DNA of 32,000 nt from Thermodesulfobacteriota bacterium (GTDB lineage Bacteria > Desulfobacterota > WTBG01 > JAGOGO01). Position 1 is the first letter of the stretch. Every line of letters starts with the position of its first letter. This document shows positions 11,867 through 29,836 of the stretch, in pieces. Location of the stretch: the NCBI GenBank assembly GCA_026625185.1, contig CP113000.1:975622-1007621 (forward strand). The letters are read 5' to 3'. The position numbers were made by a program, and so were the translations under genes. A model generated the notes under the pieces. That model was not told where the DNA came from and did no database searches. It worked only from the letters and a program-made list of their open reading frames with translations.

Positions 11867-11868
11867 GT

Positions 11869-14536: not shown

Positions 14537-14549
14537 TATTTCCCGTTAT

Positions 14550-15335: not shown

Positions 15336-17998
15336 ATTACCTCTTCAAGAAAAACAACCGATCTATCTGCATCAAGCAAAACCCGCTGACCGTCTATTAA
15401 TCTGGTTGTAGCATCCTTTACTCCCACCAAGGTCGGAATCCCATATTCTCTGGCAATTATAGCCCCGTGAGAAAGCATCCCTCCTCTTTCAAGAATAAGT
15501 CCAGAAATTATTGGAAATGCTGGTGCCCAGCCAGGGTCGGTTTGCTTGGTCACAAGTATATCTCCCTTCTCAATCAAACCAATGGATGTTATGTCTTTAA
15601 CAATCCTTGTCCTTCCTATAACCCTGCCCTCACAGGCGCTGTACCCGGTTAAGAAACATTTTTCTATTTCCGGAACTTTCCCGATCTCCAAGGGATTGTT
15701 CTTTTCGGAGGAATAGTACTCTCCTGCAGGCAGGCGAAAACTTTCCGGCGGGGACGATTTCACATCATCTGAATATTTATTCTTCCTCTGTCTGATGACC
15801 TCCCTTATCAGAACCGGAAGGTGACATGCCGACAGATTTTCTATTTCAGAGTATTTTAAGAACAGGGCATCTTCAGCATTCTGAATAAGATGCTTTTTCT
15901 TGAAAATGGTGCCCAAGGCAAGCAAAGAATGTCTGCACTGGTTATAAAGCCTGGCTTGTTTCAATCTCACCCTTTCCCGGTATCTGATACCTTGATGTGC
16001 CAAAAAGATTGAGAACCTGATAATTATTTTGCGATATAATCCTGTTAACACCCCACAGTCTTTCCCAGCGTGTTCCAGTATCTGCTTGGTAACTTCAATC
16101 CTTCTATGGATCTGCGTTTTTAATTGTTCCTCCGGTGAGTGAAAAGGATTTTTCAAATAGCTTTTGAGAAGATCTATTAGTTTCTCTGGTGCTTCATTAT
16201 AATCCGCACGCGTTAAAAGTAATTCCCCTGAAATACGGTATCCCCATTTCTTCTGATACTCCACAAAGGCTCTGTGAAAATCATCGAACTCTTCCCCTTG
16301 AGTCAACACAGACATTATGTTTTTAGGATCATTTTCACCAAATAACCTATATAAACCGTAATTGTTCTTGATCATTTGGGTGAGCTCCCAAAATCTCTGA
16401 GGCGGCTCATGACTCACCAGATTTGGTATTCCAACGAGCAATTGATGAACATTTGTTGATCGTGATCGGGCGTATGTCTCCACAGAAGAACGAAGTAAAC
16501 CATACCCGAACATGGCAAGAGCGTCCGCAAGAGAGGCGTCTTTCCACTTATGCATACGAATATGAATAAAATTCATAATATCTGTTTTATATCTGTTTAC
16601 GTCATGCTCCTTCTCAGGGGAATTGCATTCTTTAAAATGAATGTCGGCTTGTTTTTCAAACCTTTTAACATATAGGGGAAGACACAAAATATGTTTTAAG
16701 GACCGAGAACCAAGCTTGAAAAAATAAAGGTATCTTGCCGGCCTGTTTTTTGACAGAAATTTATCCGGCAAATTATCATAGGGCAGGTCATATATCCCTA
16801 TAAAAGAATCCCAGTATTTCTTGGCAAGATCGGGAAAAGGCAATGCACTCAGACATTCATAAATATTGGTAAGATTATAGTACATTCTACTTTGATGGAA
16901 ATCGATTATGGTTTCAAAGGCTGGCTCTAACTTTTTGCGGACCTTGCGACTGACCCCAAGCAATCTAGCCAAATTTCTGAAATAGTGATAATATCCATTT
17001 TTTGCAAACGACATAAGAAATGGAGTAAGCGCTTCAGGAAAATTTTCATTCACATTAACATTGGACCATAAACAAGACGCATCGTTTTTCTGATTCTGCG
17101 CGGTTACCGGCCTGGATTGAAGTAACCATAACTTTTTTGATTTATCAATGGTCCACTCTATATCTTGTTGCCTTCCGGTATTCTGTTTAGCATCTTTGGC
17201 GATAGCAACAAGATTCTTAATATTCGCAATCTGAGTGTCGAGAAAACCATTTCCGTTGTTTCCCGCAGAAGAACCGGCAATTCTCAATCCCGCAGCTTCA
17301 TCATAAATCAGAATCTGCTCAGGGTTTTCCCTTCCGCCTACAAGCTGTTCTCCGGCGCCCCTGACATATTCGAGTACTAATGGTTTATTTCCGTCCTTCC
17401 GGATCTGGGAGAGAGGATGGGTGGTAAATAACACACCTGAAAATTCCGACTGAATATAAGGTTGCACGATAACCGACATGCCGCCTAAAATTGTGTTACG
17501 GTTACACTGATAACTGATGCTTTTTGATTTCCAATAAGACATCCAGCACTGAAGAAGAGCGTCATGACAGGCGCTCTCGAATTTCTTTTTACTGTCCGTT
17601 ACTGCAGAATCTAGTTGCCCCGCAAAGGAGTTCTCGTTGGAGTCCTCTCCAATGGCTGAGCTACGGAATATCAATTCTGATTTTCCAAACACTTTTTTGA
17701 TGGCTTCATAAATATCACTGAATAACGAACTCTCAATTCCTTTCTTGAGAAGAGCATCACACAATTTTTCAGAATACCTCATGACTGAGCGGATGTCATT
17801 CAAATTTTCATCATTGTCATGAACCTCGGCAAGAGCCTTCTTTGAATAATCCTCAAAGGCCTGTGTACCAATTATCAATGTCTTGGGTATAGATATTCCC
17901 ATCCTATTTAAGGTGTATAATGACTCTGCTTTTCCACCTGTTATGTGGGACGATTTTACCTTTGAGAGAGGAAAAGAATATTTGATTTTTTTATTCAT
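15332..17998 (-). CDS. PEP-utilising-enzyme family phosphotransferase with rifampin-phosphotransferase-like architecture
   Basis: N-terminal PPDK_N-type ATP-grasp (GGKAESLYTL...QDIEWTIDK..LWLLQSRPVT), about 450 aa of helical middle region, and a C-terminal swivel domain (TDPGWAPAF...ERGGMLSHGAIIAREYGIPTLVG). Start moved to MNKKIKYSF (ATG at 17998), which overlaps the upstream stop as ATGAATAA. Confidence 0.75.
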   Translation of the reverse strand: MNKKIKYSFPLSKVKSSHITGGKAESLYTLNRMGISIPKTLIIGTQAFEDYSKKALAEVHDNDENLNDIRSVMRYSEKLCDALLKKGIESSLFSDIYEAIKKVFGKSELIFRSSAIGEDSNENSFAGQLDSAVTDSKKKFESACHDALLQCWMSYWKSKSISYQCNRNTILGGMSVIVQPYIQSEFSGVLFTTHPLSQIRKDGNKPLVLEYVRGAGEQLVGGRENPEQILIYDEAAGLRIAGSSAGNNGNGFLDTQIANIKNLVAIAKDAKQNTGRQQDIEWTIDKSKKLWLLQSRPVTAQNQKNDASCLWSNVNVNENFPEALTPFLMSFAKNGYYHYFRNLARLLGVSRKVRKKLEPAFETIIDFHQSRMYYNLTNIYECLSALPFPDLAKKYWDSFIGIYDLPYDNLPDKFLSKNRPARYLYFFKLGSRSLKHILCLPLYVKRFEKQADIHFKECNSPEKEHDVNRYKTDIMNFIHIRMHKWKDASLADALAMFGYGLLRSSVETYARSRSTNVHQLLVGIPNLVSHEPPQRFWELTQMIKNNYGLYRLFGENDPKNIMSVLTQGEEFDDFHRAFVEYQKKWGYRISGELLLTRADYNEAPEKLIDLLKSYLKNPFHSPEEQLKTQIHRRIEVTKQILEHAGKDCGVLTGLYRKIIIRFSIFLAHQGIRYRERVRLKQARLYNQCRHSLLALGTIFKKKHLIQNAEDALFLKYSEIENLSACHLPVLIREVIRQRKNKYSDDVKSSPPESFRLPAGEYYSSEKNNPLEIGKVPEIEKCFLTGYSACEGRVIGRTRIVKDITSIGLIEKGDILVTKQTDPGWAPAFPIISGLILERGGMLSHGAIIAREYGIPTLVGVKDATTRLIDGQRVLLDADRSVVFLEEVI

Positions 17999-18767
17999 AT
18001 GAAACATTGTGCATCTTGTTATGAAACTCAACAAAAATATCCCTTACCATTTTCCTGTTCTTATCAAGATCATCAAGAACCCATTTGCTGGTCTCTACTT
18101 CCGGCAGAATGTAAACATCCACATGGCCACCCAAAGTCCTATAACCCCTACCCGGATCTATTTCCGATGGTATGTAAATATAAATCGGAACAATTGGTAC
18201 CTTCATATTGGTCGCTAGGTGAAACGCACCTTTATTGAATTTTGATATTCTTCCCGTTGTGGTAACTGCGCCTTCAGGAGAAAGGATCACAGACTCTCCG
18301 GTCTTACGCAATTTGACTTCTGCACGTTTAAAACATTCAGTCCTCTTTCTTGGTTTGTGTTGCTGGTCAATCAGAAATGTCCCGATAAAAAAGTTTATTA
18401 TGGTGACGGGAATATATTTATAGGTCGCTTTTGACATAAAGTACCGCGTATTATTGAAGCCGATCGCCGGTAAGAGCACCACATCAATAGTGGAGGTGTG
18501 ATTAATCACATATATTTTCTGTGAATTTGACAAATCGTCCTGATGATGAACGGTATAGGTAATGCCAAACATCCGCAAAATCATCGCGCAACCGGGACGG
18601 ACAATATACCGGCAACATATATTTCTTAGCTTAAAAAAGGTGCTGATTTGAAAAATTGCAACGATAAAGGCAGTGATAAACAATACGGTTACTGCTGAGG
18701 GAATAAGGATCAGCAAACGCACAGGGAATTTTCTCTTTGCTTTTTTATCAGGCTTTGCAGCGATCAT
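17991..18767 (-). CDS. lysophospholipid/glycerol-3-phosphate acyltransferase family (PlsC-like) with N-terminal TM anchor
   Basis: NHTSTID (H-x4-D) and SPEGAVTTTG (PEG block). GGGAG lies 8 nt upstream of the ATG. First gene of the ten-gene unit. Confidence 0.8.
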   Translation of the reverse strand: MIAAKPDKKAKRKFPVRLLILIPSAVTVLFITAFIVAIFQISTFFKLRNICCRYIVRPGCAMILRMFGITYTVHHQDDLSNSQKIYVINHTSTIDVVLLPAIGFNNTRYFMSKATYKYIPVTIINFFIGTFLIDQQHKPRKRTECFKRAEVKLRKTGESVILSPEGAVTTTGRISKFNKGAFHLATNMKVPIVPIYIYIPSEIDPGRGYRTLGGHVDVYILPEVETSKWVLDDLDKNRKMVRDIFVEFHNKMHNVSYE

Positions 18768-19040
18768 AAATCGCTCCCGTGAAACAGGTGTGTCTCATAC
18801 CCATTTTGCATCAAGGTCGTCAGTTAACTATTTGACAGAGTCCCCCTCGCTGGATATTGGCGGCAAAGTTCTCGGTTACCCTAATAATATATCTTCCCCA
18901 AAAATTACCACTGCCACCTCTGTATTTCAACGAAAATATTGTGCTCATCATTTACATCAAAAAATTTGCCGGTATGGTTACAGGGGCATTATTGAAAAGA
19001 TGGAGGCATTCTGTCTGTCGCTTTAATGCAAATTAATTAC

Positions 19041-19118
19041 TTAGTCATTTTCAGCAAATTTCTAGGTATTTTATATCATAAATACCACCTTTATTCTGCT
19101 TGCGCACAAAATCGCACC
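19041..19118. repeat. repeat A, copy 1 (~80 bp, near identical to 25389-25468)
   Basis: TTAGTCATTTTCAGCAAATTTCTAGGTATTTTATATCATAAATACCACCTTTATTCTGCTTGCGCACAAAATCGCACC. It differs from copy 2 by two substitutions and a 2-nt A-run length change, by eye. Confidence 0.9.
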
Positions 19119-19245
19119 ACCGTTAAAAAGAACTAGAAACCATGTTAATATGGCAACCCTTTTTTAACCGAAACATTCTTATATCCTTTCCTCCGCAAGA
19201 TTCCGGATAATTCTTCTTAACCTGAACTATCCAACGGTTAAACAG

Positions 19246-19261
19246 TGCAATGGCCGTGCCA
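19246..19261 (-). promoter_or_regulatory. sigma-54 (-24/-12) promoter, copy 1
   Basis: The minus strand reads TGGCACGGCCATTGCA, a perfect TGGCAC-N5-TTGC(A) element. Confidence 0.7.
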
Positions 19262-19278
19262 GGGCGCGGAGATATTTA

Positions 19279-19291
19279 TAACTAATTGATT
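19279..19291 (-). promoter_or_regulatory. IHF-like site, copy 1
   Basis: The minus strand reads AATCAATTAGTTA, which fits WATCAANNNNTTR. It lies 17 nt upstream of the -24 element. Confidence 0.35.
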
Positions 19292-19369
19292 ATTAATTAT
19301 TTTATGCAAAAACTCGAATTAGGCTTTGAAAAGGAGGGGAATTTTAATGTTCACAAAAAGCACTATGCT

Positions 19370-19386
19370 TATACAAAAAATGTATA
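19370..19386. promoter_or_regulatory. palindromic upstream activator site candidate, copy 1
   Basis: TATACA-AAAAA-TGTATA. Its centre lies about 119 bp upstream of the -24 GG. Confidence 0.55.
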
Positions 19387-19508
19387 GCTATGAGGTGTTT
19401 TCTGAAGGGAGTCGCCCGGTATTTTTAAGCAGGGTTCACGGGGCAGGGAAGACTGAGGAGGGCATACCAAAAGCAAAATGAGGATTTTTAGCTTTACCGC
19501 TTGCTCCC

Positions 19509-19646
19509 TCACAGCTTCTTGAGCTTTGCCGGTACTATCGTCTCCCTAAGCAGCTTTTCCACCCCTTCTGCACCTACCCGATTACGCCATCTCGCCAGTG
19601 AGCTCGGGTCTAAGGGAAACTCATGTTGAAAATACACAACGGGTGC
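19509..19646 (-). pseudogene. IS5-like (DUF772-type N-terminal domain) transposase remnant
   Basis: The minus-strand frame, bounded by stops, reads APVVYFQHEFPLDPSSLARWRNRVGAEGVEKLLRETIVPAKLKKL. The YFQ.EFP.DPSSL.RWR.R.G..G.E.LL..TI pattern is typical of the N-terminal region of IS5/IS1182-type transposases. There is no start codon and no DDE domain. Confidence 0.5.
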
Positions 19647-19847
19647 TTACGGTTTATCATCTGTTCTAAGCGGGATCTAAACAAATCCTTTTGTCCGCTT
19701 GATTTCATCCTTTTCGGCATCAAAAATCACCAGCTTTTGAAGGGTTAATTACCCTTTTCTGGTGAATATATTATGTTTTTTCCCTAATTAAAACGAATTA
19801 TATCAATCTGTTAAACGTTTTTTCAGGAGCGACTATTTATAAAAAAT

Positions 19848-19874
19848 TTGACAAGAAAAATATTTATATATAAT
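19848..19874 (+). promoter_or_regulatory. candidate sigma-70-type promoter for the BCR/HGD-family operon
   Basis: TTGACA (19848-19853) and TATAAT (19869-19874) with a short 15-nt spacer. Alternatively TAATTT at 17 nt. About 90 nt upstream of the GTG at 19961. Confidence 0.4.
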
Positions 19875-19960
19875 TTATATGTGTTGAACAAAATCGTATT
19901 AACTTTACAGTTAACTAACTTTTCTATAGTCATATCAACTTAATAAAAGGAGGTCTAATT

Positions 19961-21082
19961 GTGGCAATCGAGGAATTAATACGGATTGGTGAAACTATAT
20001 ATAACAAATATATTGATGATTGGAAAAAAGAGGGGAAGAGAGTTATTGGGTACACTTGCAGTTATGCGCCTGAAGAGATCCTGCAAGCCGCCGGTCTTCT
20101 GCCTATTAGGCTCAAGGCCATTGGTTCCAGCGAAACCAGTAAGGCAGACGTGTATATGCCGAAATTCCACTGCACTTTTTCAAGGCATCTGTTGGATCAG
20201 GGCATGTCTAATGCCTTTGATTTTGTTGATGGGATTGTCTTTGTTAACTCATGCGACCAGCTAAGACGAATGTATGATGTGTGGAATAAGCTTGTAAAAT
20301 TTCCATATCAAACCATTATGGTCATGCCCTATTCCTACGATAAAGAGGATTTTGAATGGTACCTGGAGCACGAGGTTAAGAAGCTTAAGAGCGACCTGGA
20401 GACAGCTTATGGGGCAAAAATTACCGACAGCTCGTTAAGCGAGTCAATAAACATTTTCAACGAAACCAGAAACCTTCAGGCCAGATTGTATGAAATGAGA
20501 GGCGCAAAAGAACCCAGAATCAACGGGGTGGACACCCATAAGATCATCACGGCTGCAACCTCTATGCCCAAGAAAAAATACAACGAATTGCTGAAAGCGT
20601 CCCTCGAGGAGCTGAAAAAGAGGCCGGGTATTACAGATTACCGGGCCCGCATTCTCATCGGAGGAAGCATGATAGATGAGCCGGAATTACTGCAGGTTAT
20701 CGAGGATGCCGGGGGTCTTGTGGTTGCAGACGTGTTGTGCACCGGCACCAGATGGACCACGGATAAAGTGGAAACGGACGGTGACCCCCTTTACGCCATT
20801 GCCAAACGATATTACGATCATCAACCATGTCCAAGAATGACCATGGTTTACGAGCGAAAACGTGATTTTGTACTGGATCAGGCAAAGAAAAATCAGGTGG
20901 ATGGGGCTATCTTTTCCAAAATCGCCTTTTGTGATCATCATTCTGGAGACAATGTTCTTTACCAGGAGGATCTTGAGAAGGAGGGTATTCCATCTTTGCT
21001 GCTGGATAGAGATTACAGGATAACCGACGTGGGCCGATTCAGGACAAGAATCGAGGCCTTTTTTGAAAAACTTGGTAAATAA
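19961..21082 (+). CDS. BCR/HGD-family subunit, small HGD-D-type (BcrC/BzdN/HgdB-like)
   Basis: 373 aa. GYTCSYAPEEIL..AG..P, VNSCDQ, and the C-terminal DGAIFSKIAFCDHH block are typical of 2-hydroxyacyl-CoA dehydratase / benzoyl-CoA reductase core subunits. GTG start 7 nt after AAGGAGG. Confidence 0.75.
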   Translation: MAIEELIRIGETIYNKYIDDWKKEGKRVIGYTCSYAPEEILQAAGLLPIRLKAIGSSETSKADVYMPKFHCTFSRHLLDQGMSNAFDFVDGIVFVNSCDQLRRMYDVWNKLVKFPYQTIMVMPYSYDKEDFEWYLEHEVKKLKSDLETAYGAKITDSSLSESINIFNETRNLQARLYEMRGAKEPRINGVDTHKIITAATSMPKKKYNELLKASLEELKKRPGITDYRARILIGGSMIDEPELLQVIEDAGGLVVADVLCTGTRWTTDKVETDGDPLYAIAKRYYDHQPCPRMTMVYERKRDFVLDQAKKNQVDGAIFSKIAFCDHHSGDNVLYQEDLEKEGIPSLLLDRDYRITDVGRFRTRIEAFFEKLGK

Positions 21083-21096
21083 AAGGAGGGTCGGCT

Positions 21097-22518
21097 ATGA
21101 AACCGGTTCCTAAAGAGTTAGAAGGTATAGAGCTGTTTCAAAGGTATTTAACCACCTTTAACCTAATTAATATTGCTTTGACTAATTTCAAAACAGTCGA
21201 AGATCTTATGGCCGCGGCGCCGGAGATCTTAAAGACCCTGCCGGAATATGATGTCGGGGTTTTTCAGTCCCTTAGGCCGGATATTGTTATCGCGGCCTTC
21301 CATCCAAAAAACAGGAATGTGGTACTGAAATGTGCGCAGGCCCAAATAAAATTTTGGCAGGGCATAATAGATGACATCAAGGCAGACAAGCCGCAGTTGG
21401 ATTTTTGGTTTGCGCAAGGTCCGGAACTATTCCGCGCGCTGGGATTTTCCCCGCTATGCACTGAAACCACGTTGGTTGCCTCTGCAATTTATCAGGATGG
21501 ATGTGAAGATGCCACTGACTTATTCAGGTCTAAAGGATTTGCCGATCATATCTGCACCGCCAATGTGGCCTACCCCGGATATGTGATGAATGGCAACTGG
21601 AAGGTTCCCCATGTTATGGTAAAGCCCGGGACTCCCTGTCCTTCAAGCAACCTGGCCTACCAGGCCATAAAGAAATGGTATGGCAATGATTACATCATGT
21701 ATGACTCCACATACTATCTTGACGAAAAAGGCTTGGCCCATCAGACGGATGCCATTCGAAGGGCCATAGCCAAATTGGAGAAGATCTCGGGACAAAAGCT
21801 TGATGAAGCTGTCCTCAGGCAGCAGATGAAGGAAAGCAACCAAACCTACGCCCTTTGCGGTGAGCTTCTTGAGCTCAGGAAAAACAAGCCCAATCCTGAT
21901 CCGGGCATGCACCGTATCCTTGACCTGCTCATGATGGTCACACTTCTCGGAGAGCCTTCATGTACCGAATACTTTCAGCTTCTTGTGGACGAAGCGAAGG
22001 AAAGGGTGGCCAAAGGAGTGGGGGCAATCCCGGAGGGCAAAAAGGAGATCAGGGCGCTTCACACTTGGGCCCTTAACGCATATATGCCGGACCTTTATCA
22101 CTGGCTGGAGGAGACCTATGGGATGACTTACCTTACCTGTGGACTCTCCTATTTCGTTAACCATCAGGTGGATACCTCTTCGGCGGATTCCATGGTCGAG
22201 GGATGGGCCCAGAGGATTATGAACTTTACTATGGAAAGGCAGAGCATGAGCTTTGGTGATGTCTGGGTTGATGATATGTTTTATCTGGCAAAGAACTGGG
22301 ATGCTGACTGCGGCATATTCGCGGGAAACCTGTCATGCAAGCAGGGTTGGGCCATGAGTAAACTGCTGGGCGACCGACTGGAGGATGAACTTGGTATACC
22401 GTCGGTAAGATTTGAAATCGAATTGTGCGATAAACGCACCTGCCCCCCTGATGAGTTCAAGCACCGTATCGGGAGTTTTGTGGAAACCATTTTAACAAAC
22501 TCAAAAAAGAGAGTTTGA
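21097..22518 (+). CDS. BCR/HGD-family subunit, large HGD-D-type (BcrB/BzdO/HgdA-like)
   Basis: 473 aa. The C-terminal DADCGIFAGNLSCKQGW block and overall size fit the larger core subunit. AAGGAGG lies upstream of the ATG. Confidence 0.7.
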   Translation: MKPVPKELEGIELFQRYLTTFNLINIALTNFKTVEDLMAAAPEILKTLPEYDVGVFQSLRPDIVIAAFHPKNRNVVLKCAQAQIKFWQGIIDDIKADKPQLDFWFAQGPELFRALGFSPLCTETTLVASAIYQDGCEDATDLFRSKGFADHICTANVAYPGYVMNGNWKVPHVMVKPGTPCPSSNLAYQAIKKWYGNDYIMYDSTYYLDEKGLAHQTDAIRRAIAKLEKISGQKLDEAVLRQQMKESNQTYALCGELLELRKNKPNPDPGMHRILDLLMMVTLLGEPSCTEYFQLLVDEAKERVAKGVGAIPEGKKEIRALHTWALNAYMPDLYHWLEETYGMTYLTCGLSYFVNHQVDTSSADSMVEGWAQRIMNFTMERQSMSFGDVWVDDMFYLAKNWDADCGIFAGNLSCKQGWAMSKLLGDRLEDELGIPSVRFEIELCDKRTCPPDEFKHRIGSFVETILTNSKKRV

Positions 22519-22520
22519 CA

Positions 22521-23324
22521 ATGATAGTTGCAGGTATTGATGTCGGCTCCCTCACCGCTAAAGCGCTTATTATGAAGGACGGTGAGATTATTGATTTTGA
22601 TATTATCACTGTCAGACCAACACCCGTACAATCAGCAGGGGACGTGATGGAAAAGGCCCTGAACAAGACCGGGCTTAAGATGGATGACCTAGATTATTGC
22701 GTGAGCACCGGTTATGGACGGGAGCAGATATCATTTTCACGGAAAAGCATATCTGAAATCTCCTGTCATGGAATGGGGGCGCATTGGTGCAGACCCTCCA
22801 TAAGGGGCGTTATCGACATCGGGGGGCAAGACTGCAAGGCCATTATAGTGGATAAGGACGGGAATTTAGATAATTTCGCCATGAACGACAAATGCGCCGC
22901 CGGCACCGGAAGATTTCTGGAGATCATCTCCAAGGCCCTTGGCATTGACCTCGCCGAGCTGGGACCGTTGACCTTCAAATCAAATAATCCACTGAAAATT
23001 GTGAGGAGGTGCAGCGTTTTTGCCGAGTATGAGGTCATATTTTTACTCGCAGAAGGTAAGGATGTCACCGATATAGGCGCGGGGGTTAATGAAGCCATGG
23101 CCCAAAGAGCCTTTTCGCTGGCTAGCAGTATAAATCTTAATAACAAACTTACTGGTGAATTGACCGTGACGGGCGGTGTTGCAAAAAATGTCGGGGTCAT
23201 CAAAAACCTGGAAAAACTTTTTGATGCCGAAATTGTTAGTTTGCCACTGGACCCACAGATAATGGGCGCTTTGGGGGCTGCGCTGTTTGCTCGACGATAT
23301 TATGAGAAAGAGGTAAGAGTTTAA
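22521..23324 (+). CDS. BcrAD/BadFG-type ASKHA ATPase (electron-activating subunit 1)
   Basis: MIVAGIDVGSLTAK phosphate-1 motif. DKCAAGTGRFLE and RCSVFAEYEV carry the two Cys that bridge the inter-subunit [4Fe-4S] cluster in HgdC/BcrAD. I prefer the ATG at 22521 to the TTG at 22515 used in the ORF track. Confidence 0.85.
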   Translation: MIVAGIDVGSLTAKALIMKDGEIIDFDIITVRPTPVQSAGDVMEKALNKTGLKMDDLDYCVSTGYGREQISFSRKSISEISCHGMGAHWCRPSIRGVIDIGGQDCKAIIVDKDGNLDNFAMNDKCAAGTGRFLEIISKALGIDLAELGPLTFKSNNPLKIVRRCSVFAEYEVIFLLAEGKDVTDIGAGVNEAMAQRAFSLASSINLNNKLTGELTVTGGVAKNVGVIKNLEKLFDAEIVSLPLDPQIMGALGAALFARRYYEKEVRV

Positions 23325-24104
23325 ATGCATTTTTCCATTGGGATGGACATCGGACTGGTCGGTATCAAAGGGGTAGTCATGAAAGGCGAAAATATTGTTG
23401 CTCAGGTGGTAAAAGATACTGGGGTGAGACCTGCTTTGGCGGCCAAGGAATGTTATGAGCAATTACTCTCAGATGCGGATATAAGTTCAGACAAGATTCA
23501 AGCCCATGGGGTTAGCGGCTGGGGCTCAAAAACATTATCATTCGATTTCGATATAGAATACCTCCCTGATGTGGTCTGCCTTGCTAAAGGGGCAAAATGG
23601 GCCTGCCCGACTTCAAGAATGGTTGTTGACGTGGGGGCGCAGACAGCAAAAGTTGCTCGTTTTGATGGGAATGGGAGTGTAAAAAAATACGAGCTAAGTG
23701 ATAAATGCGCCTCAGGAACAGGAAGATTTCTGGAAATCATGTCGGCGGCTTTAGGATTGAAAGTAAACAATTTGGGGCAAATAGGACAAGCGGCGTCGAA
23801 ACTGGTGGAAATTTCATCCCAATGCAGCGTCTTTGCCGAAAGTGAAATCATAAGCTATGTAAATACCGGCGAGAAGACAGAAGATATTGTAAATGGCATT
23901 AACTATTCGATAGCGAAGAGGGTTTCAACCATCATTATGAGAGTGGGTATTCAAGAAGATATTATTATAACAGGTGGGGTGGCAAAAAATGATGCCGTTG
24001 TCAGATATATAGAGGAGATGGTCAAGGTTAGATTTAAAGATTACGGGGTAGACCCCCAAATGATTGGCGCCATAGGTGCGAGCTTAACTGCTCAGCAGAC
24101 ATGA
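23325..24104 (+). CDS. BcrAD/BadFG-type ASKHA ATPase (electron-activating subunit 2, distinct paralogue)
   Basis: IGMDIGLVGIKG, DKCASGTGRFLE and QCSVFAESEI. The ATG directly abuts the upstream TAA. Confidence 0.85.
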   Translation: MHFSIGMDIGLVGIKGVVMKGENIVAQVVKDTGVRPALAAKECYEQLLSDADISSDKIQAHGVSGWGSKTLSFDFDIEYLPDVVCLAKGAKWACPTSRMVVDVGAQTAKVARFDGNGSVKKYELSDKCASGTGRFLEIMSAALGLKVNNLGQIGQAASKLVEISSQCSVFAESEIISYVNTGEKTEDIVNGINYSIAKRVSTIIMRVGIQEDIIITGGVAKNDAVVRYIEEMVKVRFKDYGVDPQMIGAIGASLTAQQT

Positions 24105-24122
24105 AAAGGTTAGGAACCAGCT

Positions 24123-24935
24123 ATGCCAAAAATAATTGCCGTTAGCGGCAAAGGGGGTATAGGAAAATCCACCCTGGCTGCATTGATAACCAAGTTTTTT
24201 TCTGAAAACACGGATAAAAAGATTCTCCTGGTTGATGCTGACCCGTCTATTAGCCTGACCCTTATGCTCGGGATGGACCCGCTCAAAACACTGAGCAACT
24301 TGAGGGAAAAATTTGTCACCAGTGCGGAGGCTGCCCAGGAGGCCATGTTTGGAGATAAACACATCCGTGATACTATTTATGATGAGTGTTTGCAGAACGG
24401 TGGAAGGTTTAACTTGCTTGCCATGGGCAGGCCTGAAGGACCGGGATGTTTCTGTTCAGTCAATGAGTTATTAAGATATGGGATCGAAAGTGTTTCAAAG
24501 AATTTTGACATAACCATCATCGATTGTGAAGCAGGCCCTGAACAGGTTAACCGGAGAGTGACCAAGAGTATTGACGATTTAATACTCGTAATCGAACCAA
24601 CCGTCAGAAGCGTTCAAACAGCATTATATATCAAGAAGGTGGCTGAAACTTATGGTGTTCAAAAGTCGTTTAGTTTGCACATTATTTTAAATAAAATAGG
24701 GAAACATGACAGAACAAAAAACATAAAGTCAATTTTAAGTAGCGAAGGGATAAAAATTTCAGGAATAGTACCTTTGGATGAAAATATAGCTGAATATGAC
24801 TCCATTGGAAAATCTATACTTGATCTTTCTCATGAATCACCCAGCGTGAAAGCTGTTGGAGAAATCTTCACATTCCTGTATCTCCAGAAAGAGGTCAATT
24901 TTGTCCGTGAGAGAGAGTTAGACCAGCAGATATAA
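24123..24935 (+). CDS. CooC-like MinD/ParA-type P-loop ATPase (metallocentre maturation factor family)
   Basis: AVSGKGGIGKST deviant Walker A, LLVDADPSISL, and a C-x-C motif (GPGCFCSVN) as in CooC-type nickel/cluster insertion ATPases. Confidence 0.6.
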   Translation: MPKIIAVSGKGGIGKSTLAALITKFFSENTDKKILLVDADPSISLTLMLGMDPLKTLSNLREKFVTSAEAAQEAMFGDKHIRDTIYDECLQNGGRFNLLAMGRPEGPGCFCSVNELLRYGIESVSKNFDITIIDCEAGPEQVNRRVTKSIDDLILVIEPTVRSVQTALYIKKVAETYGVQKSFSLHIILNKIGKHDRTKNIKSILSSEGIKISGIVPLDENIAEYDSIGKSILDLSHESPSVKAVGEIFTFLYLQKEVNFVRERELDQQI

Positions 24936-25060
24936 TTGCAGATTTTTACAGCAGATTAATTTTAGAAAGATTGGTGGTGTCTGATGGACGATGTCAGAAT
25001 TTTCTTTGAGCAAAATCTAGAGGATTTTGCTGATTGACCCGCCCAGCGTTTCCGCCCCCT

Positions 25061-25520: not shown

Positions 25521-26855
25521 CTAATAAACTAAACTTATCCACCTCGCAACAATCCCTTGCTTGGTTGGCCAAACCGCAAGGACATCACACCTCCCGCTAC
25601 TACCGATCTGTATCAAATTCCATGGCCCACCCAACCAATGATCAGCAACATTAGTTTCTCCCAAATCTACCGGAGCAGACCAAACCCGACTAAAAAATTC
25701 CAAAAAAAGAACATGGTTTTTGTTACTAAAATTACCCCCCTCTGGGTTTCCGATTACCAAAGCATGAAAGTTATCGTCGCCAGCCGGAGATAGCTTGGGT
25801 TCCCAATAGGTTCGAAGTGGGAATTTGATAGTTCCATTCTGCACGTTATCTTTTAATAAGTAACTCTCGCGATCATGACCACGCAGGATAAGCGCATTGC
25901 CTGTTTCTGGATCTACCGCAAGAGTGCTTTGCGACATATCCTTGGGGTAATCTTGCGAGAATTGAAATTTTTTTCCGGTTACCTTACGGAGCGATCTTGA
26001 TCCCTTAAAAGCACTTAATTTTGCCGGATCCGCCAAGGTATCAGGTGGACCGACAGTTGTTTTGAAACTTACATATCTAGATTGAGAATCCTTTGCTATT
26101 ATTGTGCAAATTGAGTCGTAAATGAGGGTGACAGTGCCTTTTGCATCAGCAGCAAGGTGTATATTATCTATCGATTTCTTATCATTTGGATCAACGACAG
26201 TCCAGGTTGTGTAGATAGGATGGTTTTCAGAAACTACCATTAGTTTGTGCGCTCGTGTTGGCCACGGCCAAATGATGCCACCCCCGTAACCACCAAGTCC
26301 ATACAAATCCAGACGCCAAGGAGCTCCAACTTCATTTCCTTTAACCTCAAAGGCCCATATCAACCCTTTAGCGCCTTTCACGAAAGACGGATTAAACGCC
26401 TCAACCCCTATCTCTTTCCAAGGGGTGCGCTCAACTTTTCGCCAGATACCGTCCTTATAAATCAGATGCTCATTATCTATTAGCACATGAAGATGCCCTT
26501 CGCAATCAAACGTTACATCAAAAGCCGAGGGCAAAGCGGAAGTCCTTATGATCTCGCTCTTCGTGACGCTGTCAGGGCCAACAACGAAGTGGTGAATTTC
26601 CTTTAATTCAGTTGAAACGATAACAACGTGGGCTTGGCCGCTGCTATCAAAAATTACCCGGGCGCTATCGCCATGCGCTGTTTTTGTCCTCAGGAGTTCG
26701 ATAACTGGACCTGAACGAATGTTCGGCAGCACATATTTCGCAGGTAATTTTTTTTCAGATGTGATCGCGCATCCGTTGATTAAAAGGCTTGCGACAAATA
26801 GGACAAGTAGAATATCCGTTTGAAGGCATTTAAAACGCTTGCAATTAAAAACCAT
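25521..26855 (-). CDS. predicted lipoprotein, probably beta-propeller-like, unknown function
   Basis: Signal peptide ending LLINGC|A. Recurring strand-like blocks (AHVVIVS, HLHVLID, VTLIYD, FHALVIG, CDVLAVW) suggest repeated blades. Strong SD (AAGAGGAGGAAG) upstream. Confidence 0.6.
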   Translation of the reverse strand: MVFNCKRFKCLQTDILLVLFVASLLINGCAITSEKKLPAKYVLPNIRSGPVIELLRTKTAHGDSARVIFDSSGQAHVVIVSTELKEIHHFVVGPDSVTKSEIIRTSALPSAFDVTFDCEGHLHVLIDNEHLIYKDGIWRKVERTPWKEIGVEAFNPSFVKGAKGLIWAFEVKGNEVGAPWRLDLYGLGGYGGGIIWPWPTRAHKLMVVSENHPIYTTWTVVDPNDKKSIDNIHLAADAKGTVTLIYDSICTIIAKDSQSRYVSFKTTVGPPDTLADPAKLSAFKGSRSLRKVTGKKFQFSQDYPKDMSQSTLAVDPETGNALILRGHDRESYLLKDNVQNGTIKFPLRTYWEPKLSPAGDDNFHALVIGNPEGGNFSNKNHVLFLEFFSRVWSAPVDLGETNVADHWLGGPWNLIQIGSSGRCDVLAVWPTKQGIVARWISLVY

Positions 26856-27043
26856 CGCTGCAATCTTCCTCCTCTTAAATGATCTTTTGATCTTTTCACA
26901 TTAAACTGCCACGCCGATTTACTTCACTGAAACCCGACCTCGATTCAGGTTTCTTTTATTCGATAAACCCTGCACCAGCCCTCATTTATAGCCCCACAGC
27001 AATCATTGTCACCCTCGACTTTCAAGTCTTTATTATAGGCCTT

Positions 27044-27439
27044 TCATTGATTGGTTTCCTGACATTCACAAACCGCTTTATCAATGCGGCTATGGAAGAT
27101 TTGATAAGCCCTATGATATTCGGTTACTGAACCTGAATCTGTGTCAGCAACTTCGGCCCATACCGGATACCTCGAATGTTTCGCGCCAGAAGGGATTCCA
27201 TACCAACCCGTGGGGATTGCAACTCCTACAAAATAACCATTGTTCTGCTTTTCCAGAATTACTGGAACTTTGCCTGACATTCCGCTCTGTTCCCATTCTT
27301 TCGCAATGCATGAAGCGACAGCATGAGATGAATGCACACTTTTGAAATTCTGTGTGGCACAACCGCATATCAAAATAAATACAAGCATCAAAGTCAATCC
27401 ACAAATTATTTTTATTTTCCTTTTTATTAAGTTTGACAT
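27044..27439 (-). CDS. small predicted lipoprotein, unknown function
   Basis: 131 aa. MSNLIKRKIK..LMLVFILICGC|ATQNF is a signal peptide plus lipobox-like Cys. Confidence 0.6.
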   Translation of the reverse strand: MSNLIKRKIKIICGLTLMLVFILICGCATQNFKSVHSSHAVASCIAKEWEQSGMSGKVPVILEKQNNGYFVGVAIPTGWYGIPSGAKHSRYPVWAEVADTDSGSVTEYHRAYQIFHSRIDKAVCECQETNQ

Positions 27440-27480
27440 TTTATTTTTCTGCCTTCATACGGAGAGGAGTTCCAATGCGC

Positions 27481-28881
27481 TCACTTGGTTTCTAAAAGCA
27501 CCTTTCTATTCTCCGACCATGGGGCTTTCTCCTTCACCACTTCATTAAAAAATCTTTGCATTGAAGCTTGAATTGCTTTCGATATTTCCGCTTTAAATAA
27601 TTTCCTTCCGTTAACGCCTTGATATTCTTCCATCGTTCGACTCGTGGAACCTTCTCCGACCTTCGCCTCATAAAATAAGGGCTCTTTTCTATTCTTGGGA
27701 TTGGCATAATATGAAACCACATCATACACTAAGGCTTTGGGCGCGGTTTCCCAAAGGCGTATGCGCAAAGTTACTGCCACGCAAAAAGAACCGCGCTCTT
27801 TACATTCACTCAGTTCTATATTCAGGATTTCTGTTTGAACAATACTTTTTAGGCCCTGTTGGTTCGCCTGCGCAAAGGGATCATTTTCAGTGTTTAAGTC
27901 AATCGGCTTTGATATGCAATATTTGGAAAGCATGCTTTCAAAACCAGATCCGAGCATTGCGGCAGGGTCATTTTCCTTGAGCTCCTGCTGAAGTCCCTGG
28001 ATGGTTGGCTGCCATTTATGCTCAGCGATTTCGCCGGCAATTGTCCCCCCGGTAATTCCCACAGGAAGATACGTTAAGTATAAAAGAAGAATACCTGCTC
28101 CGGCTTCACGTCCCGCACTTAAGGTTGAAAGACCATTGGCTACATCTTCTCCACTTTCAATCCCAGTAGCACGCGAGATGGCTCTTTTTTTCCAATGCGG
28201 GGACATCAGGTTTTTGGTGCTGGTGGTCATGAAGCCCATGGGAACAAGTTCTTTTATGCACCGGGTATTAATTGGCTTCCCCATTGGTTTCATATGCGCT
28301 AATGATGGAGAACCGTATTGACTGAACGAATCTTGGGCAATAGCCTGTGCTGATTCACTCTCATCAATTACCCTAATTCCGGAGCACTCATTTACCAGTC
28401 GCCCAAAAATCCCCCAGGTGGTTCGGCAGGAAGCAGCAAGGGTACCGATATAGAGCACGTGGTTACCACGTGGAACATGAAACCAAAATACTTCAGGAGC
28501 TGACAGATACCGATCATCCTTCGATGAAATTGCTTCCCGTTTTGGGGAAACGCCAAGATAATAGGTGCCCGGCTGAAGAATAAAATATACCCAGCCGTTT
28601 TTTTGAGCTTGGTGGGATGGAGAATGATAAGGGAAAATACCTGTTGGAGATTGGTCAGCATCAATACTTGCCATTAGTGAGTAAAATCTTTCCGGCCCTT
28701 GCAATTTTTTAGAATCAATTTCCGCAGAAAGCCGGAGCAAAACTACTGATTTTCCTCCTCCGGCAACCGCCTTCTCATCACCTGCATTCGGATTACGCAC
28801 AACAGTCGCGCAGCCGTTAAGAAGCATGGCAAGAAAAACTAATAATACGATCATCAAGGAGAATACATTTAATTTTGACAT
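27481..28881 (-). CDS. predicted lipoprotein, family X paralogue 2 (466 aa), unknown function
   Basis: Signal peptide ..FLAMLLNGC|ATVV. Full-length paralogue of 29913-31316. Conserved Cys pairs and a Gly-rich hydrophobic segment (YLPVGITGGTIAGEIAEHKWQP). Confidence 0.65.
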   Translation of the reverse strand: MSKLNVFSLMIVLLVFLAMLLNGCATVVRNPNAGDEKAVAGGGKSVVLLRLSAEIDSKKLQGPERFYSLMASIDADQSPTGIFPYHSPSHQAQKNGWVYFILQPGTYYLGVSPKREAISSKDDRYLSAPEVFWFHVPRGNHVLYIGTLAASCRTTWGIFGRLVNECSGIRVIDESESAQAIAQDSFSQYGSPSLAHMKPMGKPINTRCIKELVPMGFMTTSTKNLMSPHWKKRAISRATGIESGEDVANGLSTLSAGREAGAGILLLYLTYLPVGITGGTIAGEIAEHKWQPTIQGLQQELKENDPAAMLGSGFESMLSKYCISKPIDLNTENDPFAQANQQGLKSIVQTEILNIELSECKERGSFCVAVTLRIRLWETAPKALVYDVVSYYANPKNRKEPLFYEAKVGEGSTSRTMEEYQGVNGRKLFKAEISKAIQASMQRFFNEVVKEKAPWSENRKVLLETK

Positions 28882-28961
28882 TTTTTTTACCTCCTTTCAT
28901 TTGATTTCAGAAACCAGTGGTAAAAAAAGCAATGGCCGTCCTCCGTTTACTCTCCAGGCTT

Positions 28962-29678: not shown

Positions 29679-29692
29679 ATGATTACTCCTTA

Positions 29693-29836
29693 TTAATTCT
29701 TGATGCACGAAGCGACAACATCAGATGAACGCGAACTTTTGAAATTCTGGGTGGCACAACCGGATATCAATAGAAAGACAATAGTCAAAACTATTTCAAG
29801 TGCCCCTTTGATCTGTCTTTTTATAAACCGTGACAT
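29693..29836 (-). pseudogene. truncated copy (47 codons) of the small lipoprotein gene at 27044-27439
   Basis: MSRFIKRQIKGALEIVLTIVFLLISGCATQNFKSSRSSDVVASCIKN* aligns with the first ~47 residues of MSNLIKRKIKIICGLTLMLVFILICGCATQNFKSVHSSHAVASCIAKEW... The flanking DNA (29837-29912 versus 27440-27520) is also homologous. Confidence 0.55.

What the first reader, a model, noticed from the sequence alone, without database searches (positions are those of the whole stretch)
19961..24104. Orphan four-subunit BCR/HGD-family enzyme beside lipid genes: aromatic-ring reductase or split PlsAR/Ger-like ether-lipid enzyme?
Seen: four plus-strand genes with gaps of 14, 2 and 0 nt. There are two HGD-D-type core subunits (373 and 473 aa). 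There are also two different ~260-aa ASKHA ATPases, each keeping both cluster-bridging Cys contexts (DKCAAGTGRFLE/RCSVFAE and DKCASGTGRFLE/QCSVFAE).

Established, the family includes:
(i) Class I ATP-dependent benzoyl-CoA reductases, whose operons have this same small-large-ATPase-ATPase order and two non-identical ATPase subunits (bcrCBAD, badDEFG, bzdNOPQ).
(ii) 2-hydroxyacyl-CoA dehydratases, with a single homodimeric activator.
(iii) The anaerobic plasmalogen synthase PlsA/PlsR and the related glycerol-ester reductase Ger, which carry two ATPase domains plus HGD-D domains in fused form.
(iv) Double-cubane cluster proteins.

Inference: the subunit inventory fits a BCR-like reductase. However, the window shows no CoA ligase, ferredoxin, dienoyl-CoA hydratase or ring-opening genes. 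The nearest neighbours are a lipid operon and lipoproteins. A split-gene ester-to-ether (plasmalogen or alkyl-ether) reductase acting on the product of the adjacent lipid operon is therefore a serious alternative.
Basis: partly seen in the sequence, partly recalled or inferred. Interest (0 to 1): 0.75.

Follow-up and report, generated by a model that had tools for sequence, protein, structure and literature searches.

The report
Uncharacterised ATP-driven reductase with CooC partner
This is a self-contained five-gene operon in the benzene-fermenting bacterium ORM2a that encodes a relative of ATP-dependent benzoyl-CoA reductase with an extra CooC-type metal-handling ATPase; its substrate is unknown, and it sits next to lipid genes only because of a strain-specific insertion.

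Summary
The four genes are real and are as described. The functional unit, however, has five genes (window 19961-24935). A CooC-family ATPase with an intact Cys-X-Cys motif follows the two ASKHA ATPases in nearly every relative that could be read past them.

The small subunit keeps all six Cys of the BzdN/DCCP [8Fe-9S] double cubane and branches next to BzdN. The large subunit keeps the three [4Fe-4S] Cys of BzdO/HadB. It is otherwise very divergent (17-19% identity), with clade-specific residues that include a fourth Cys. One ATPase is Q/alpha-like and the other is P/delta-like.

All four BCR-type subunits score far below the curated cut-offs for Bzd, Bcr, Had and DCCP. There is no DUF2229 domain, which is the Ger/PlsA hallmark.

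The window is the ORM2a genome (WAC08505-WAC08509). ORM2a is a benzene fermenter that expresses a class II (Bam) reductase. A sister-strain contig lacks the whole lipid operon, an 11.5-kb low-GC indel. None of about 20 other loci carries lipid genes. Orthologues at 63-85% identity occur in the butane specialist BuS5. More distant relatives sit beside CoA ligases, acyl-CoA dehydrogenases, ETF and OYE-type reductases.

Verdict: this is a new, uncharacterised branch of the BCR/HAD/DCCP family. It is probably an ATP-dependent acyl-CoA reductase. The lipid hypothesis is not supported.

The parts
19833..19960 (+). Conserved 128-nt leader of the cassette. It carries a consensus-like promoter (TTGACA at 19848-19853, TATAAT at 19869-19874, 15-nt spacer) and an AAAGGAGG ribosome-binding site 8 nt before the GTG start.
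   Evidence: blastn shows that homology with the sister-strain contigs L035 and L036 resumes exactly at 19833. The sequence was read. The promoter is a consensus match only and is untested.
19961..21082 (+). S: small HGD-D subunit (373 aa, WAC08505.1), BzdN-like, predicted carrier of an [8Fe-9S] double cubane.
   Evidence: Pfam HGD-D 1.7e-92. The best PDB match is BzdN 8s02_B at 3.4e-60, 34.5% identity. Six Cys (33, 71, 98, 260, 290, 324) are invariant in all 21 S sequences of the family alignment and align with the six Cys that BzdN and DCCP share. In an NJ tree the clade has bootstrap 100 and groups with BzdN at 99. TIGR03190 scores 209 bits against a cut-off of 454.
21097..22518 (+). L: large HGD-D subunit (473 aa, WAC08506.1), predicted catalytic subunit with a three-Cys [4Fe-4S] site, a clade-specific N-terminal helical extension and a fourth Cys (C348).
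   Evidence: Pfam HGD-D 7.6e-45. C153, C181 and C414 are conserved in about 99% of 165 relatives and align with BzdO Cys95, Cys128 and Cys380. C348, H151, S184-N185 and H272-R273 are specific to the clade. The AF2 model has pLDDT 89; Foldseek ranks HadB, BzdO and MbdO equally (TM 0.69-0.73, 17-19% identity). BzdO, BcrB, HadB and DCCP models all score below 65 bits.
22521..23324 (+). A1: ASKHA ATPase (267 aa, WAC08507.1), Q/alpha-like, with all nucleotide motifs and both cluster Cys intact.
   Evidence: BcrAD_BadFG 2.7e-60. The best PDB match is MbdQ at 4.3e-61, 46% identity. Motifs DVGS, TGYGRE, GGQDCK, DKCAAGTGRFLE and CSVFAE are present.
23325..24104 (+). A2: second ASKHA ATPase (259 aa, WAC08508.1), P/delta-like, with degenerate phosphate-binding motifs but both cluster Cys retained.
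   Evidence: BcrAD_BadFG 5.5e-45. GWG and GAQ replace GYGR and GGQD across the whole A2 group, as in MbdP, which has GGQT. It is 31.5% identical to A1.
24123..24935 (+). C: CooC-family P-loop ATPase (270 aa, WAC08509.1) with a deviant Walker A (GKGGIGKST) and a Cys-X-Cys motif (GCFCS).
   Evidence: The best PDB match is CooC1 3kje at 5.7e-20, with the CXC aligned. The G-C-[FY]-C motif is invariant in all 15 cassette-linked copies. The gene follows the ATPases in nearly all related loci. Homologues at 45-47% identity also sit directly after HGD-D pairs or a BcrAD gene in four other lineages.

Best explanation
A self-contained five-gene operon encodes an uncharacterised member of the BCR/HAD/DCCP radical-enzyme family, built like a Bzd-type class I benzoyl-CoA reductase.

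Inferred mechanism:
1. A heterodimer of the two ASKHA ATPases (A1 Q-like, A2 P-like) holds a bridging [4Fe-4S] cluster.
2. It uses ATP hydrolysis to push a low-potential electron into the S/L heterodimer.
3. S relays or stores the electron on an [8Fe-9S] double cubane.
4. L reduces the substrate at a three-Cys [4Fe-4S] site whose surroundings differ from those of BzdO.
5. The CooC-type ATPase most likely acts as a maturation or metal-insertion factor for one of these clusters.

The substrate is unknown. From the neighbourhoods of more distant relatives, it is most probably a CoA thioester of an unsaturated, alicyclic or aromatic acid.

The cassette is not ORM2a's benzoyl-CoA reductase, which is the class II Bam enzyme. 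It is also not functionally tied to the adjacent lipid operon.

What is shown: domain content, cluster-ligand conservation, synteny, strain indel, published proteomic detection of S. What is inferred: electron path, reductase chemistry, CoA substrate, role of CooC.
For: Architecture and ligands:
- Domains are confirmed by Pfam.
- S keeps all six double-cubane Cys, plus BzdN Arg53, Arg267 (as Arg or Lys) and His330.
- S groups with BzdN at bootstrap 99, outside DCCP, MbdN and HadC.
- L keeps the three Cys of BzdO/HadB.
- The ATPases split into a conserved Q-like type and a degenerate P-like type, as in MbdPQ.
- The distant group has the bzdNOPQ gene order.

The five-gene unit is conserved across Desulfobacterota, Binatota and Actinomycetota MAGs and in Desulfosarcina BuS5.

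Neighbourhood families in the distant group:
- FAD oxidoreductases: 8
- AMP-binding CoA ligases: 5, plus 1 in L006
- ferredoxins: 5
- ETF: 4
- SDR: 4
- acyl-CoA dehydrogenases: 3 or more
- OYE-type reductases in L006 and BuS5

This parallels the OYE and ferredoxin genes next to the class I-like THNCoA reductase (PMC12016498).

Independence from the lipid genes is shown. S was detected with 11 spectra in benzene-grown OR culture.
Against: - No subunit reaches any curated equivalog cut-off.
- L is only 17-19% identical to BzdO, HadB and MbdO. It lacks BzdO His131 (Ser184 here) and Tyr97 (Ala155 here). Reductase versus dehydratase chemistry therefore cannot be read from L.
- The close sub-clade (ORM2a/b, BuS5, L009, L011) has no CoA ligase or beta-oxidation genes beside it. 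A CoA substrate is thus extrapolated from relatives with 32-39% identity in L.
- BzdNO assembled its double cubane in E. coli without a CooC (PMC11971306). The CooC role is therefore speculative.
- ATP-dependent reduction is costly for a syntrophic fermenter.
Confidence: 0.55

Rival explanations
1. It is a dearomatising aryl-CoA reductase used in ORM2a's aromatic catabolism. It would be a second, ATP-dependent benzoyl-CoA-type reductase, or a reductase acting on a benzene-derived intermediate.
For: - The host is the benzene fermenter ORM2a.
- S was detected in the benzene-grown proteome and was assigned KEGG K04112.
- The architecture is Bzd-like and S is sister to BzdN.
- Class I-like enzymes do occur in strict anaerobes, for example THNCoA reductase.
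- Distant relatives sit beside CoA ligases, AFOR and OYE-type reductases.
Against: - ORM2a expresses a complete class II Bam pathway (BamB-I, R, Q, A), which accounts for benzoyl-CoA turnover.
- Orthologues at 63-85% identity lie in Desulfosarcina aeriophaga BuS5. BuS5 is described as a metabolic specialist on gaseous alkanes.
- L lacks BzdO His131 and Tyr97.
- All equivalog scores are less than half of their cut-offs.
- The cassette lies outside the highly expressed 'Magic' cluster, and S is of low abundance.
Confidence: 0.15
2. It is a split-gene ester-to-ether (plasmalogen or alkyl-ether) reductase of the PlsAR/Ger type that acts on products of the adjacent lipid operon.
For: - The cassette is divergently adjacent to a ten-gene lipid operon in this strain.
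- Ger/PlsA belong to the same superfamily and have two ATPase domains.
- Sulfate-reducing Desulfobacterota do make alkyl ethers.
Against: - No PF09989 (DUF2229) hit appears in any subunit. The BBD core is conserved in all ether producers.
- The lipid operon is absent from sister-strain contig L035. Homology jumps from window 8380 to 19833.
- The lipid operon is compositionally foreign: GC 0.32-0.41 versus 0.41-0.48 for the cassette and 0.43-0.48 for the housekeeping flank.
- No lipid-operon homologue lies near any other relative.
- Lipid families are absent from the top 25 neighbourhood families.
- S was detected in proteomes, whereas WAC08495, WAC08502 and WAC08503 were not.
Confidence: 0.04
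3. It is a 2-hydroxyacyl-CoA dehydratase-type enzyme. It would catalyse a redox-neutral ketyl-radical dehydration, with the ATPases acting as an activator.
For: - L scores slightly better against HadB than against BzdO (62 versus 47 bits; E 7e-11 versus 6e-9).
- Foldseek ranks HadB first by a negligible margin.
- NCBI names the proteins 2-hydroxyacyl-CoA dehydratase family.
Against: - There are two non-identical ATPase genes in the operon rather than one homodimeric activator.
- S has six Cys, like BzdN and DCCP, whereas HadC lacks two of them.
- S groups with BzdN and not with HadC.
- No CoA-transferase gene is in the window.
- HadB and HadC models score 62 and 186 bits against cut-offs of 750 and 700.
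Confidence: 0.1
4. It is a DCCP-like ATP-dependent reductase of a small, non-CoA substrate, with a detoxification or housekeeping role. This would explain why it travels as a context-free cassette.
For: - The close sub-clade has no conserved pathway partners and different flanks in each genome.
- S has the double-cubane signature and scores 209 bits against NF040772.
- An OsmC gene recurs downstream.
- The physiological substrate of DCCP is itself unknown.
Against: - DCCP is a homodimer of one HGD-D protein with a homodimeric reductase. Here there is an S/L heterodimer and two distinct ATPases.
- The NF040772 cut-off of 350 bits is not met.
- Distant relatives sit in CoA-ester contexts.
Confidence: 0.1

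Closest known systems
Bzd-type class I benzoyl-CoA reductase BzdNOPQ (Aromatoleum/Azoarcus; structures 8S02, 8S1T, 8S2R)
   Same: - Four-subunit inventory and N-O-P-Q gene order.
- The small subunit has the same six Cys as the [8Fe-9S] double cubane, plus Arg53, Arg267 and His330 equivalents.
- The large subunit has the three Cys of the aqua-[4Fe-4S] site.
- Two non-identical ASKHA ATPases.
   Different: - S is 34.5% identical and L about 17-18% identical.
- All scores are below half of the equivalog cut-offs.
- His131 is replaced by Ser and Tyr97 by Ala.
- L has an extra N-terminal helical segment and a clade-specific Cys348, H151 and H272-R273.
- A CooC-type fifth gene is present.
- No bzd pathway genes are nearby, and the host uses class II Bam.
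3-methylbenzoyl-CoA reductase MbdONQP (Thauera chlorobenzoica; 9G87, 9GAI)
   Same: A1 is closest to MbdQ (46% identity). A2 shares the degenerate GGQD motif and the DKCASGTG variant with MbdP.
   Different: MbdN lacks three of the six Cys, so it has no double-cubane signature. S is only 25% identical to MbdN.
Double-cubane cluster protein DCCP and its reductase DCCP-R (Carboxydothermus hydrogenoformans; 6ENO, 7YYL)
   Same: Six-Cys double-cubane signature in S, ATP-dependent ASKHA reductase partner, unknown physiological substrate.
   Different: DCCP is a homodimer with a homodimeric reductase. Here there is an S/L heterodimer and two distinct ATPases. S is 28.7% identical, and NF040772 scores 209 bits against a cut-off of 350.
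2-hydroxyisocaproyl-CoA dehydratase HadBC with activator HadI (3O3M, 4EHT)
   Same: Same fold. L is structurally as close to HadB as to BzdO (TM 0.71). The three Cys are conserved.
   Different: HadC lacks two of the six Cys. HAD uses a single homodimeric activator with catalytic ATP use. A CoA-transferase partner is absent here.
Plasmalogen synthase PlsA/PlsR and glycerol ester reductase Ger
   Same: Same superfamily domains (PF01869 twice, PF06050). Oxygen-sensitive and found in anaerobes.
   Different: Ger/PlsA have the PF09989 (DUF2229) reduction domain and are fused proteins of about 150 kDa. Here there is no PF09989, there are four separate genes, and there is no conserved linkage to lipid genes.
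CooC1, the Ni-insertion ATPase of CO dehydrogenase (3KJE)
   Same: Deviant Walker A, aligned Cys-X-Cys metal site, similar length of about 255-270 aa.
   Different: There is no CODH/ACS gene nearby. This subfamily is consistently found after HGD-D pairs or a BcrAD ATPase gene instead.

Membership tests
Class I (Bzd-type) benzoyl-CoA reductase | Four subunits N, O, P and Q encoded together, with two non-identical ASKHA ATPases | tested here: met
   The distant clade members even keep the N-O-P-Q order.
Class I (Bzd-type) benzoyl-CoA reductase | BzdN-type six-Cys ligation of an [8Fe-9S] double cubane | tested here: met
   C33, C71, C98, C260, C290 and C324 align with the six Cys shared by BzdN and DCCP and are invariant in the clade. 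The structural basis is in PMC11971306.
Class I (Bzd-type) benzoyl-CoA reductase | BzdO three-Cys aqua-[4Fe-4S] site (Cys95, Cys128, Cys380) | tested here: met
   C153, C181 and C414.
Class I (Bzd-type) benzoyl-CoA reductase | BzdO catalytic and substrate residues His131 and Tyr97 (Glu65, Tyr298 and Gln274 could not be aligned) | tested here: not met
   His131 is replaced by Ser184 (30 of 32 in the clade). Tyr97 is replaced by Ala155. The Glu65 region is not alignable.
Class I (Bzd-type) benzoyl-CoA reductase | Scores above the NCBIfam equivalog cut-offs (TIGR03190-03192, TIGR02259-02263) | tested here: not met
   S scores 209 bits against a cut-off of 454, L scores 47 against 449, and A1 scores 208 against 380. 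A2 scores 112 against the BzdQ cut-off of 380 and 112 against the BcrD cut-off of 313.
Class I (Bzd-type) benzoyl-CoA reductase | Clustering with benzoate-CoA ligase, dienoyl-CoA hydratase, ring-opening genes and ferredoxin | tested here: not met
   None is in the window. ORM2a's benzoyl-CoA pathway is Bam-type and lies elsewhere.
Class I (Bzd-type) benzoyl-CoA reductase | ATP-dependent reduction of benzoyl-CoA to cyclohexa-1,5-diene-1-carboxyl-CoA | not testable with these tools
   This needs an anaerobic enzyme assay.
PlsA/PlsR plasmalogen synthase and Ger glycerol ester reductase | Conserved BBD core: two PF01869 domains plus a PF09989 (DUF2229) domain | tested here: not met
   There is no PF09989 hit at E<=0.001 in any subunit. 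The architecture is taken from PMC13159169.
PlsA/PlsR plasmalogen synthase and Ger glycerol ester reductase | Phylogenetic placement with PlsAR/Ger sequences | not tested
   No PlsA, PlsR or Ger reference sequences could be obtained with the tools available.
PlsA/PlsR plasmalogen synthase and Ger glycerol ester reductase | Formation of vinyl or alkyl ether lipids on anaerobic expression | not testable with these tools
   This needs an experiment.
2-hydroxyacyl-CoA dehydratase | Beta subunit with a single [4Fe-4S] cluster (no double-cubane Cys set) and one homodimeric activator | tested here: not met
   S has six Cys, whereas HadC lacks two of them. There are two distinct ATPase genes. HadB and HadC models score far below their cut-offs.
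Double-cubane cluster protein (DCCP) | A single HGD-D protein forming a homodimer, above the NF040772 cut-off, with a homodimeric reductase | tested here: not met
   S scores 209 bits and L 35 bits against a cut-off of 350. The genes indicate an S/L pair plus two ATPases.
CooC-family metallochaperone ATPase (fifth gene) | Deviant Walker A and a Cys-X-Cys metal site at the dimer interface | tested here: met
   GKGGIGKST and GCFCS align with CooC1 (3KJE). The CXC motif is invariant in 15 cassette-linked copies.
CooC-family metallochaperone ATPase (fifth gene) | Genomic association with CODH/ACS | tested here: not met
   No cooS or acs gene lies in the window or in any related locus. The association is with HGD-D and BcrAD genes.

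The most novel reading that the evidence does not exclude
The CooC-type ATPase with an intact metal-binding Cys-X-Cys motif is coupled in operons to six-Cys/three-Cys HGD-D pairs across Desulfobacterota, Chloroflexota and other anaerobes. This coupling may mark an undescribed branch of the BCR/HAD/DCCP superfamily. In that branch a cluster would need dedicated ATP-dependent maturation. One possibility is a heterometal or otherwise non-canonical cluster on the catalytic subunit, with the clade-specific Cys348 as an extra ligand. Another is a NifH-like reductive fusion that builds the double cubane. That would mean a new metallocofactor and possibly new substrate chemistry in hydrocarbon-degrading specialists such as ORM2a and BuS5.
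Probability: 0.13. Interest if true: 0.85.

Novelty: new variant of a known kind. Interest (0 to 1): 0.5.

Why it matters
ATP-driven 'archerase' reductases perform some of the lowest-potential chemistry in biology. Only a handful of them have known substrates: benzoyl-CoA and its methyl analogues, tetrahydronaphthoyl-CoA, and the 2-hydroxyacyl-CoAs.

This finding defines a distinct, rare catalytic-subunit clade. About 10 cluster representatives were found among 1.84 billion. The clade has its own active-site signature and a dedicated CooC-type partner. It is present, and its small subunit is expressed, in ORM2a, a model organism for anaerobic benzene degradation. ORM2a is otherwise thought to rely only on ATP-independent ring reduction. 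The cassette also occurs in the butane specialist BuS5.

Identifying its substrate would extend the reaction scope of this enzyme family. It would also clarify what CooC-like ATPases do outside CO dehydrogenase maturation.

The analysis removes a tempting but false lead: the lipid neighbourhood is a strain-specific insertion.

Tried and rejected
- **Lipid link.** I looked for homologues of all ten lipid-operon proteins in 28 related loci and found none outside the near-identical strain. Aggregated Pfam counts of 133 neighbour ORFs showed no lipid families.
- **Rfam.** A scan of the whole window gave no hits.
- **Literature.** I searched for any CooC link to BCR, HGD or DCCP and found none. The hits were co-mentions or the word 'cooccurrence'.
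- **Fold comparison of L.** It did not discriminate reductase from dehydratase, because HadB, BzdO and MbdO are equally close.
- **Transposase remnant.** The intergenic region 19509-19723 gave only a weak DUF772 hit (E 0.018, below the cut-off). This is suggestive, not proof.
- **Published genomic islands.** The islands listed for ORM2a in the readable (truncated) part of Table S8 do not appear to include the lipid operon. The indel evidence therefore rests on my strain comparison.
- **Chen et al. 2022 (BuS5 proteogenomics).** The paper is not held, so expression in BuS5 is unknown.
- **Acetone-induced 'BCR/HGD' subunits in Desulfosarcina cetonica and the six-gene cluster BzS1_02010-60.** These could not be linked to this cassette because no sequences were available.
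- **A maximum-likelihood tree with PlsAR/Ger, BcrABCD and BadDEFG.** This was not possible, because only PDB-derived references were obtainable. I used NJ with bootstrap on S instead.

Full report
**Observation.** The four plus-strand genes exist exactly as described.
- S: 19961-21082, 373 aa
- L: 21097-22518, 473 aa
- A1: 22521-23324, 267 aa from the ATG
- A2: 23325-24104, 259 aa

The gaps are 14, 2 and 0 nt. Pfam gives HGD-D at 1.7e-92 for S and 7.6e-45 for L. It gives BcrAD_BadFG at 2.7e-60 for A1 and 5.5e-45 for A2. Both quoted Cys contexts are present in each ATPase.

**The unit has five genes.** The fifth protein is a CooC-family P-loop ATPase. Its best solved relative is CooC1 (3KJE, E 5.7e-20), and the metal-binding Cys-X-Cys motif is aligned (GCFCS against QCYCR). 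I collected relatives of the large subunit from three sources:
- a 5.8-billion-protein index;
- their source contigs;
- one genome per GTDB species (18 loci).

A tblastn map shows the order S-L-ATPase-ATPase-CooC in nearly every locus that extends far enough. The G-C-[FY]-C motif is invariant in all 15 cassette-linked copies.

In the distant group (32-39% identity in L) the P-like ATPase comes first, which gives exactly the bzdNOPQ order. In the window's own sub-clade the Q-like ATPase comes first.

CooC-like homologues at 45-47% identity lie directly after HGD-D pairs or a BcrAD gene in four further lineages, which include Dehalococcoidia and other Chloroflexota. Every small subunit next to such a CooC has the six Cys. 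I found no paper that links CooC to this enzyme family.

**Anatomy of the subunits.**
- *S, the small subunit.* It is 34.5% identical to BzdN. Cys33, 71, 98, 260, 290 and 324 are invariant in all 21 S sequences of the family alignment. They align with the six Cys that BzdN and DCCP share, which are the [8Fe-9S] double-cubane ligands. HadC lacks two of them and MbdN lacks three (structural basis in PMC11971306). In an NJ tree the cassette S clade has bootstrap 100. It joins a second BCR-like S from locus L022 (98), then BzdN (99), with DCCP, MbdN and HadC outside.
- *L, the large subunit.* It keeps Cys153, Cys181 and Cys414, which correspond to BzdO Cys95, Cys128 and Cys380. It has Ser in place of BzdO His131 and Ala in place of Tyr97. 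It carries clade-specific residues (His151, Ser184-Asn185, His272-Arg273, Tyr345, Cys348) and an N-terminal helical extension. An AF2 model (pLDDT 89, pTM 0.91) is equally close to HadB, BzdO and MbdO (TM 0.69-0.73, 17-19% identity).
- *How rare L is.* A profile search of 1.84 billion representatives found only about 10 clade members above 330 bits. Below them is a continuum of shorter, also uncharacterised, relatives.
- *The ATPases.* A1 has all ASKHA motifs and is closest to MbdQ (46% identity). A2 has degenerate phosphate motifs, like MbdP, but keeps both cluster Cys.
- *Curated models.* None of the four BCR-type subunits reaches a curated equivalog cut-off for Bzd, Bcr, Had or DCCP.

**Source organism.** The five proteins are exactly WAC08505.1-WAC08509.1, on a 3,300,546-bp contig. 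That contig is the closed genome of ORM2a (CP113000.1), the benzene-fermenting Desulfobacterota member of the methanogenic OR consortium (PMC13101534). The paper shows that ORM2a expresses a complete class II, ATP-independent Bam pathway. It does not discuss this cassette in the main text. Its supplement lists WAC08505.1 (S) under KEGG K04112 with 11 spectra in one proteome. Three lipid-operon proteins (WAC08495.1, WAC08502.1, WAC08503.1) carry no spectral counts in the same KEGG tables.

**The lipid neighbourhood is an accident of strain history.**
- *Sister-strain contig.* ORM2_100473 (L035) aligns to window 3255-8380 and then jumps to 19833-25008. The 11.45 kb in between, which holds the whole lipid operon, is replaced by about 400 nt.
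- *Another close strain.* L034 (98.3% identity) keeps the lipid operon. After 25008 it has transposase genes instead of the lipoprotein block.
- *The conserved unit.* It is therefore 19833-25008. It includes a 128-nt leader with a consensus-like promoter and a strong ribosome-binding site.
- *Composition.* The lipid genes have GC 0.32-0.41. The housekeeping genes have 0.43-0.48 and the cassette 0.41-0.48.
- *Other relatives.* No relative elsewhere has a homologue of any lipid-operon protein nearby.
- *Ger/PlsA hallmark.* The PF09989 domain of the conserved BBD core (PMC13159169) is absent.

**Clues to function from context.** In the distant group the neighbours are rich in the following:
- FAD oxidoreductases
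- AMP-binding CoA ligases
- ferredoxins
- ETF with Fe-S oxidoreductases
- SDRs
- acyl-CoA dehydrogenases
- enoyl-CoA hydratase
- sigma-54, GntR and TetR regulators

This is the look of a CoA-ester catabolic pathway. It resembles the OYE and ferredoxin genes beside the class I-like tetrahydronaphthoyl-CoA reductase (PMC12016498).

The close sub-clade is different. In Desulfosarcina aeriophaga BuS5 the subunits are 79% (S), 85% (L), 73% (A1), 63% (A2) and 78% (CooC) identical to the window's. There, and in a related metagenome, the cassette is followed by OsmC, two PrpD-like genes and an OYE-type reductase. In L011 it sits among NuoF-like, ferredoxin-like, DUF3786 and C_GCAxxG_C_C genes. In L009 it is followed by glyoxalase and WYL genes. 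In ORM2 it stands alone.

BuS5 is described as a specialist on gaseous alkanes (PMC13416013). This argues against a role specific to aromatic compounds.

**Conclusion.** The best-supported reading is an ATP-dependent, Bzd-like low-potential reductase of unknown substrate, probably an acyl-CoA. A dedicated CooC-type factor of unknown role accompanies it. It is a new variant within a known superfamily, not a member of any characterised family.
- The ether-lipid alternative is not supported.
- Reductase chemistry, a CoA substrate and the CooC function are inferences. They need the experiments listed under next steps.

Noticed in passing
window 8381-19832 (lipid operon genes 8624-18767, minus strand): A ten-gene accessory lipid cluster: PlsC-like acyltransferase, a 900-aa PEP-synthase/PigC/Rph-like enzyme, an unknown 261-aa protein, a methyltransferase, a YegS-like lipid kinase, a CdsA-like protein, a thioester-reductase-like NAD_binding_4 protein, a radical SAM/SPASM protein, an unknown 107-aa protein and a PssA-like protein. 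Its GC is low (0.32-0.41). All NCBIfam hits fall below their cut-offs. It is absent from sister-strain contig ORM2_100473. The three members listed in the published KEGG tables carry no proteome spectra. It may encode an unusual lipid.
   Followed up: partly
window 25521-31316, minus strand: A block of five predicted lipoproteins with lipobox motifs (LINGC, ICGC, LNGC, LFGC and similar). It includes two paralogues of 466 and 467 aa and has no Pfam hits. In the 98%-identical strain contig L034 the block is replaced by HTH_23/DDE_3 transposase genes.
   Followed up: partly
window 19509-19723, minus strand: Two short overlapping ORFs resemble the N-terminus of an IS5-type (DUF772) transposase. 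The hit is weak (E 0.018, below the Pfam cut-off). This may be a remnant marking the edge of the inserted lipid island.
   Followed up: partly
L030, L031, L032, L033 (and window 24123-24935): CooC-like ATPases at 45-47% identity sit directly after six-Cys/three-Cys HGD-D pairs or a BcrAD ATPase gene in Dehalococcoidia, other Chloroflexota and further MAGs. L030 places the gene next to HdrA/HdrD-like, MvhD and NiFe-hydrogenase genes. This looks like a general association, and I found no paper that describes it.
   Followed up: partly
L029 (BuS5 CP087952.1), L037, L012, L006: An OsmC-family gene recurs immediately downstream of the cassette in several lineages. BuS5-type loci add two MmgE/PrpD-like genes flanking an OYE-type flavoenzyme. 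L033 also has a PrpD-like gene.
   Followed up: no
L024 6149-6931 and L028 10539-11321; L003 13781-15181: The Desulfatitalea loci carry a third ASKHA ATPase gene between the Q-like ATPase and CooC. L003 has a second L paralogue, and its ATPases and CooC lie 8 kb downstream, after acyl-CoA dehydrogenase, SDR and ECH genes.
   Followed up: no
window 6164-6760 and 6757-8169, minus strand: An HNH endonuclease gene (198 aa) overlaps the start of the upstream selA gene by 4 nt. This arrangement is conserved in the sister strain (L035).
   Followed up: no
PMC13101534 supplement, locus OS130_12160 (outside the window): ORM2a has a second K04112-type HGD-D protein (WAC06985.1), two genes from the non-decarboxylating glutaryl-CoA dehydrogenase and ETF genes. 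It was not detected in the proteomes. It is a separate BCR/HAD-family system in the same genome.
   Followed up: no
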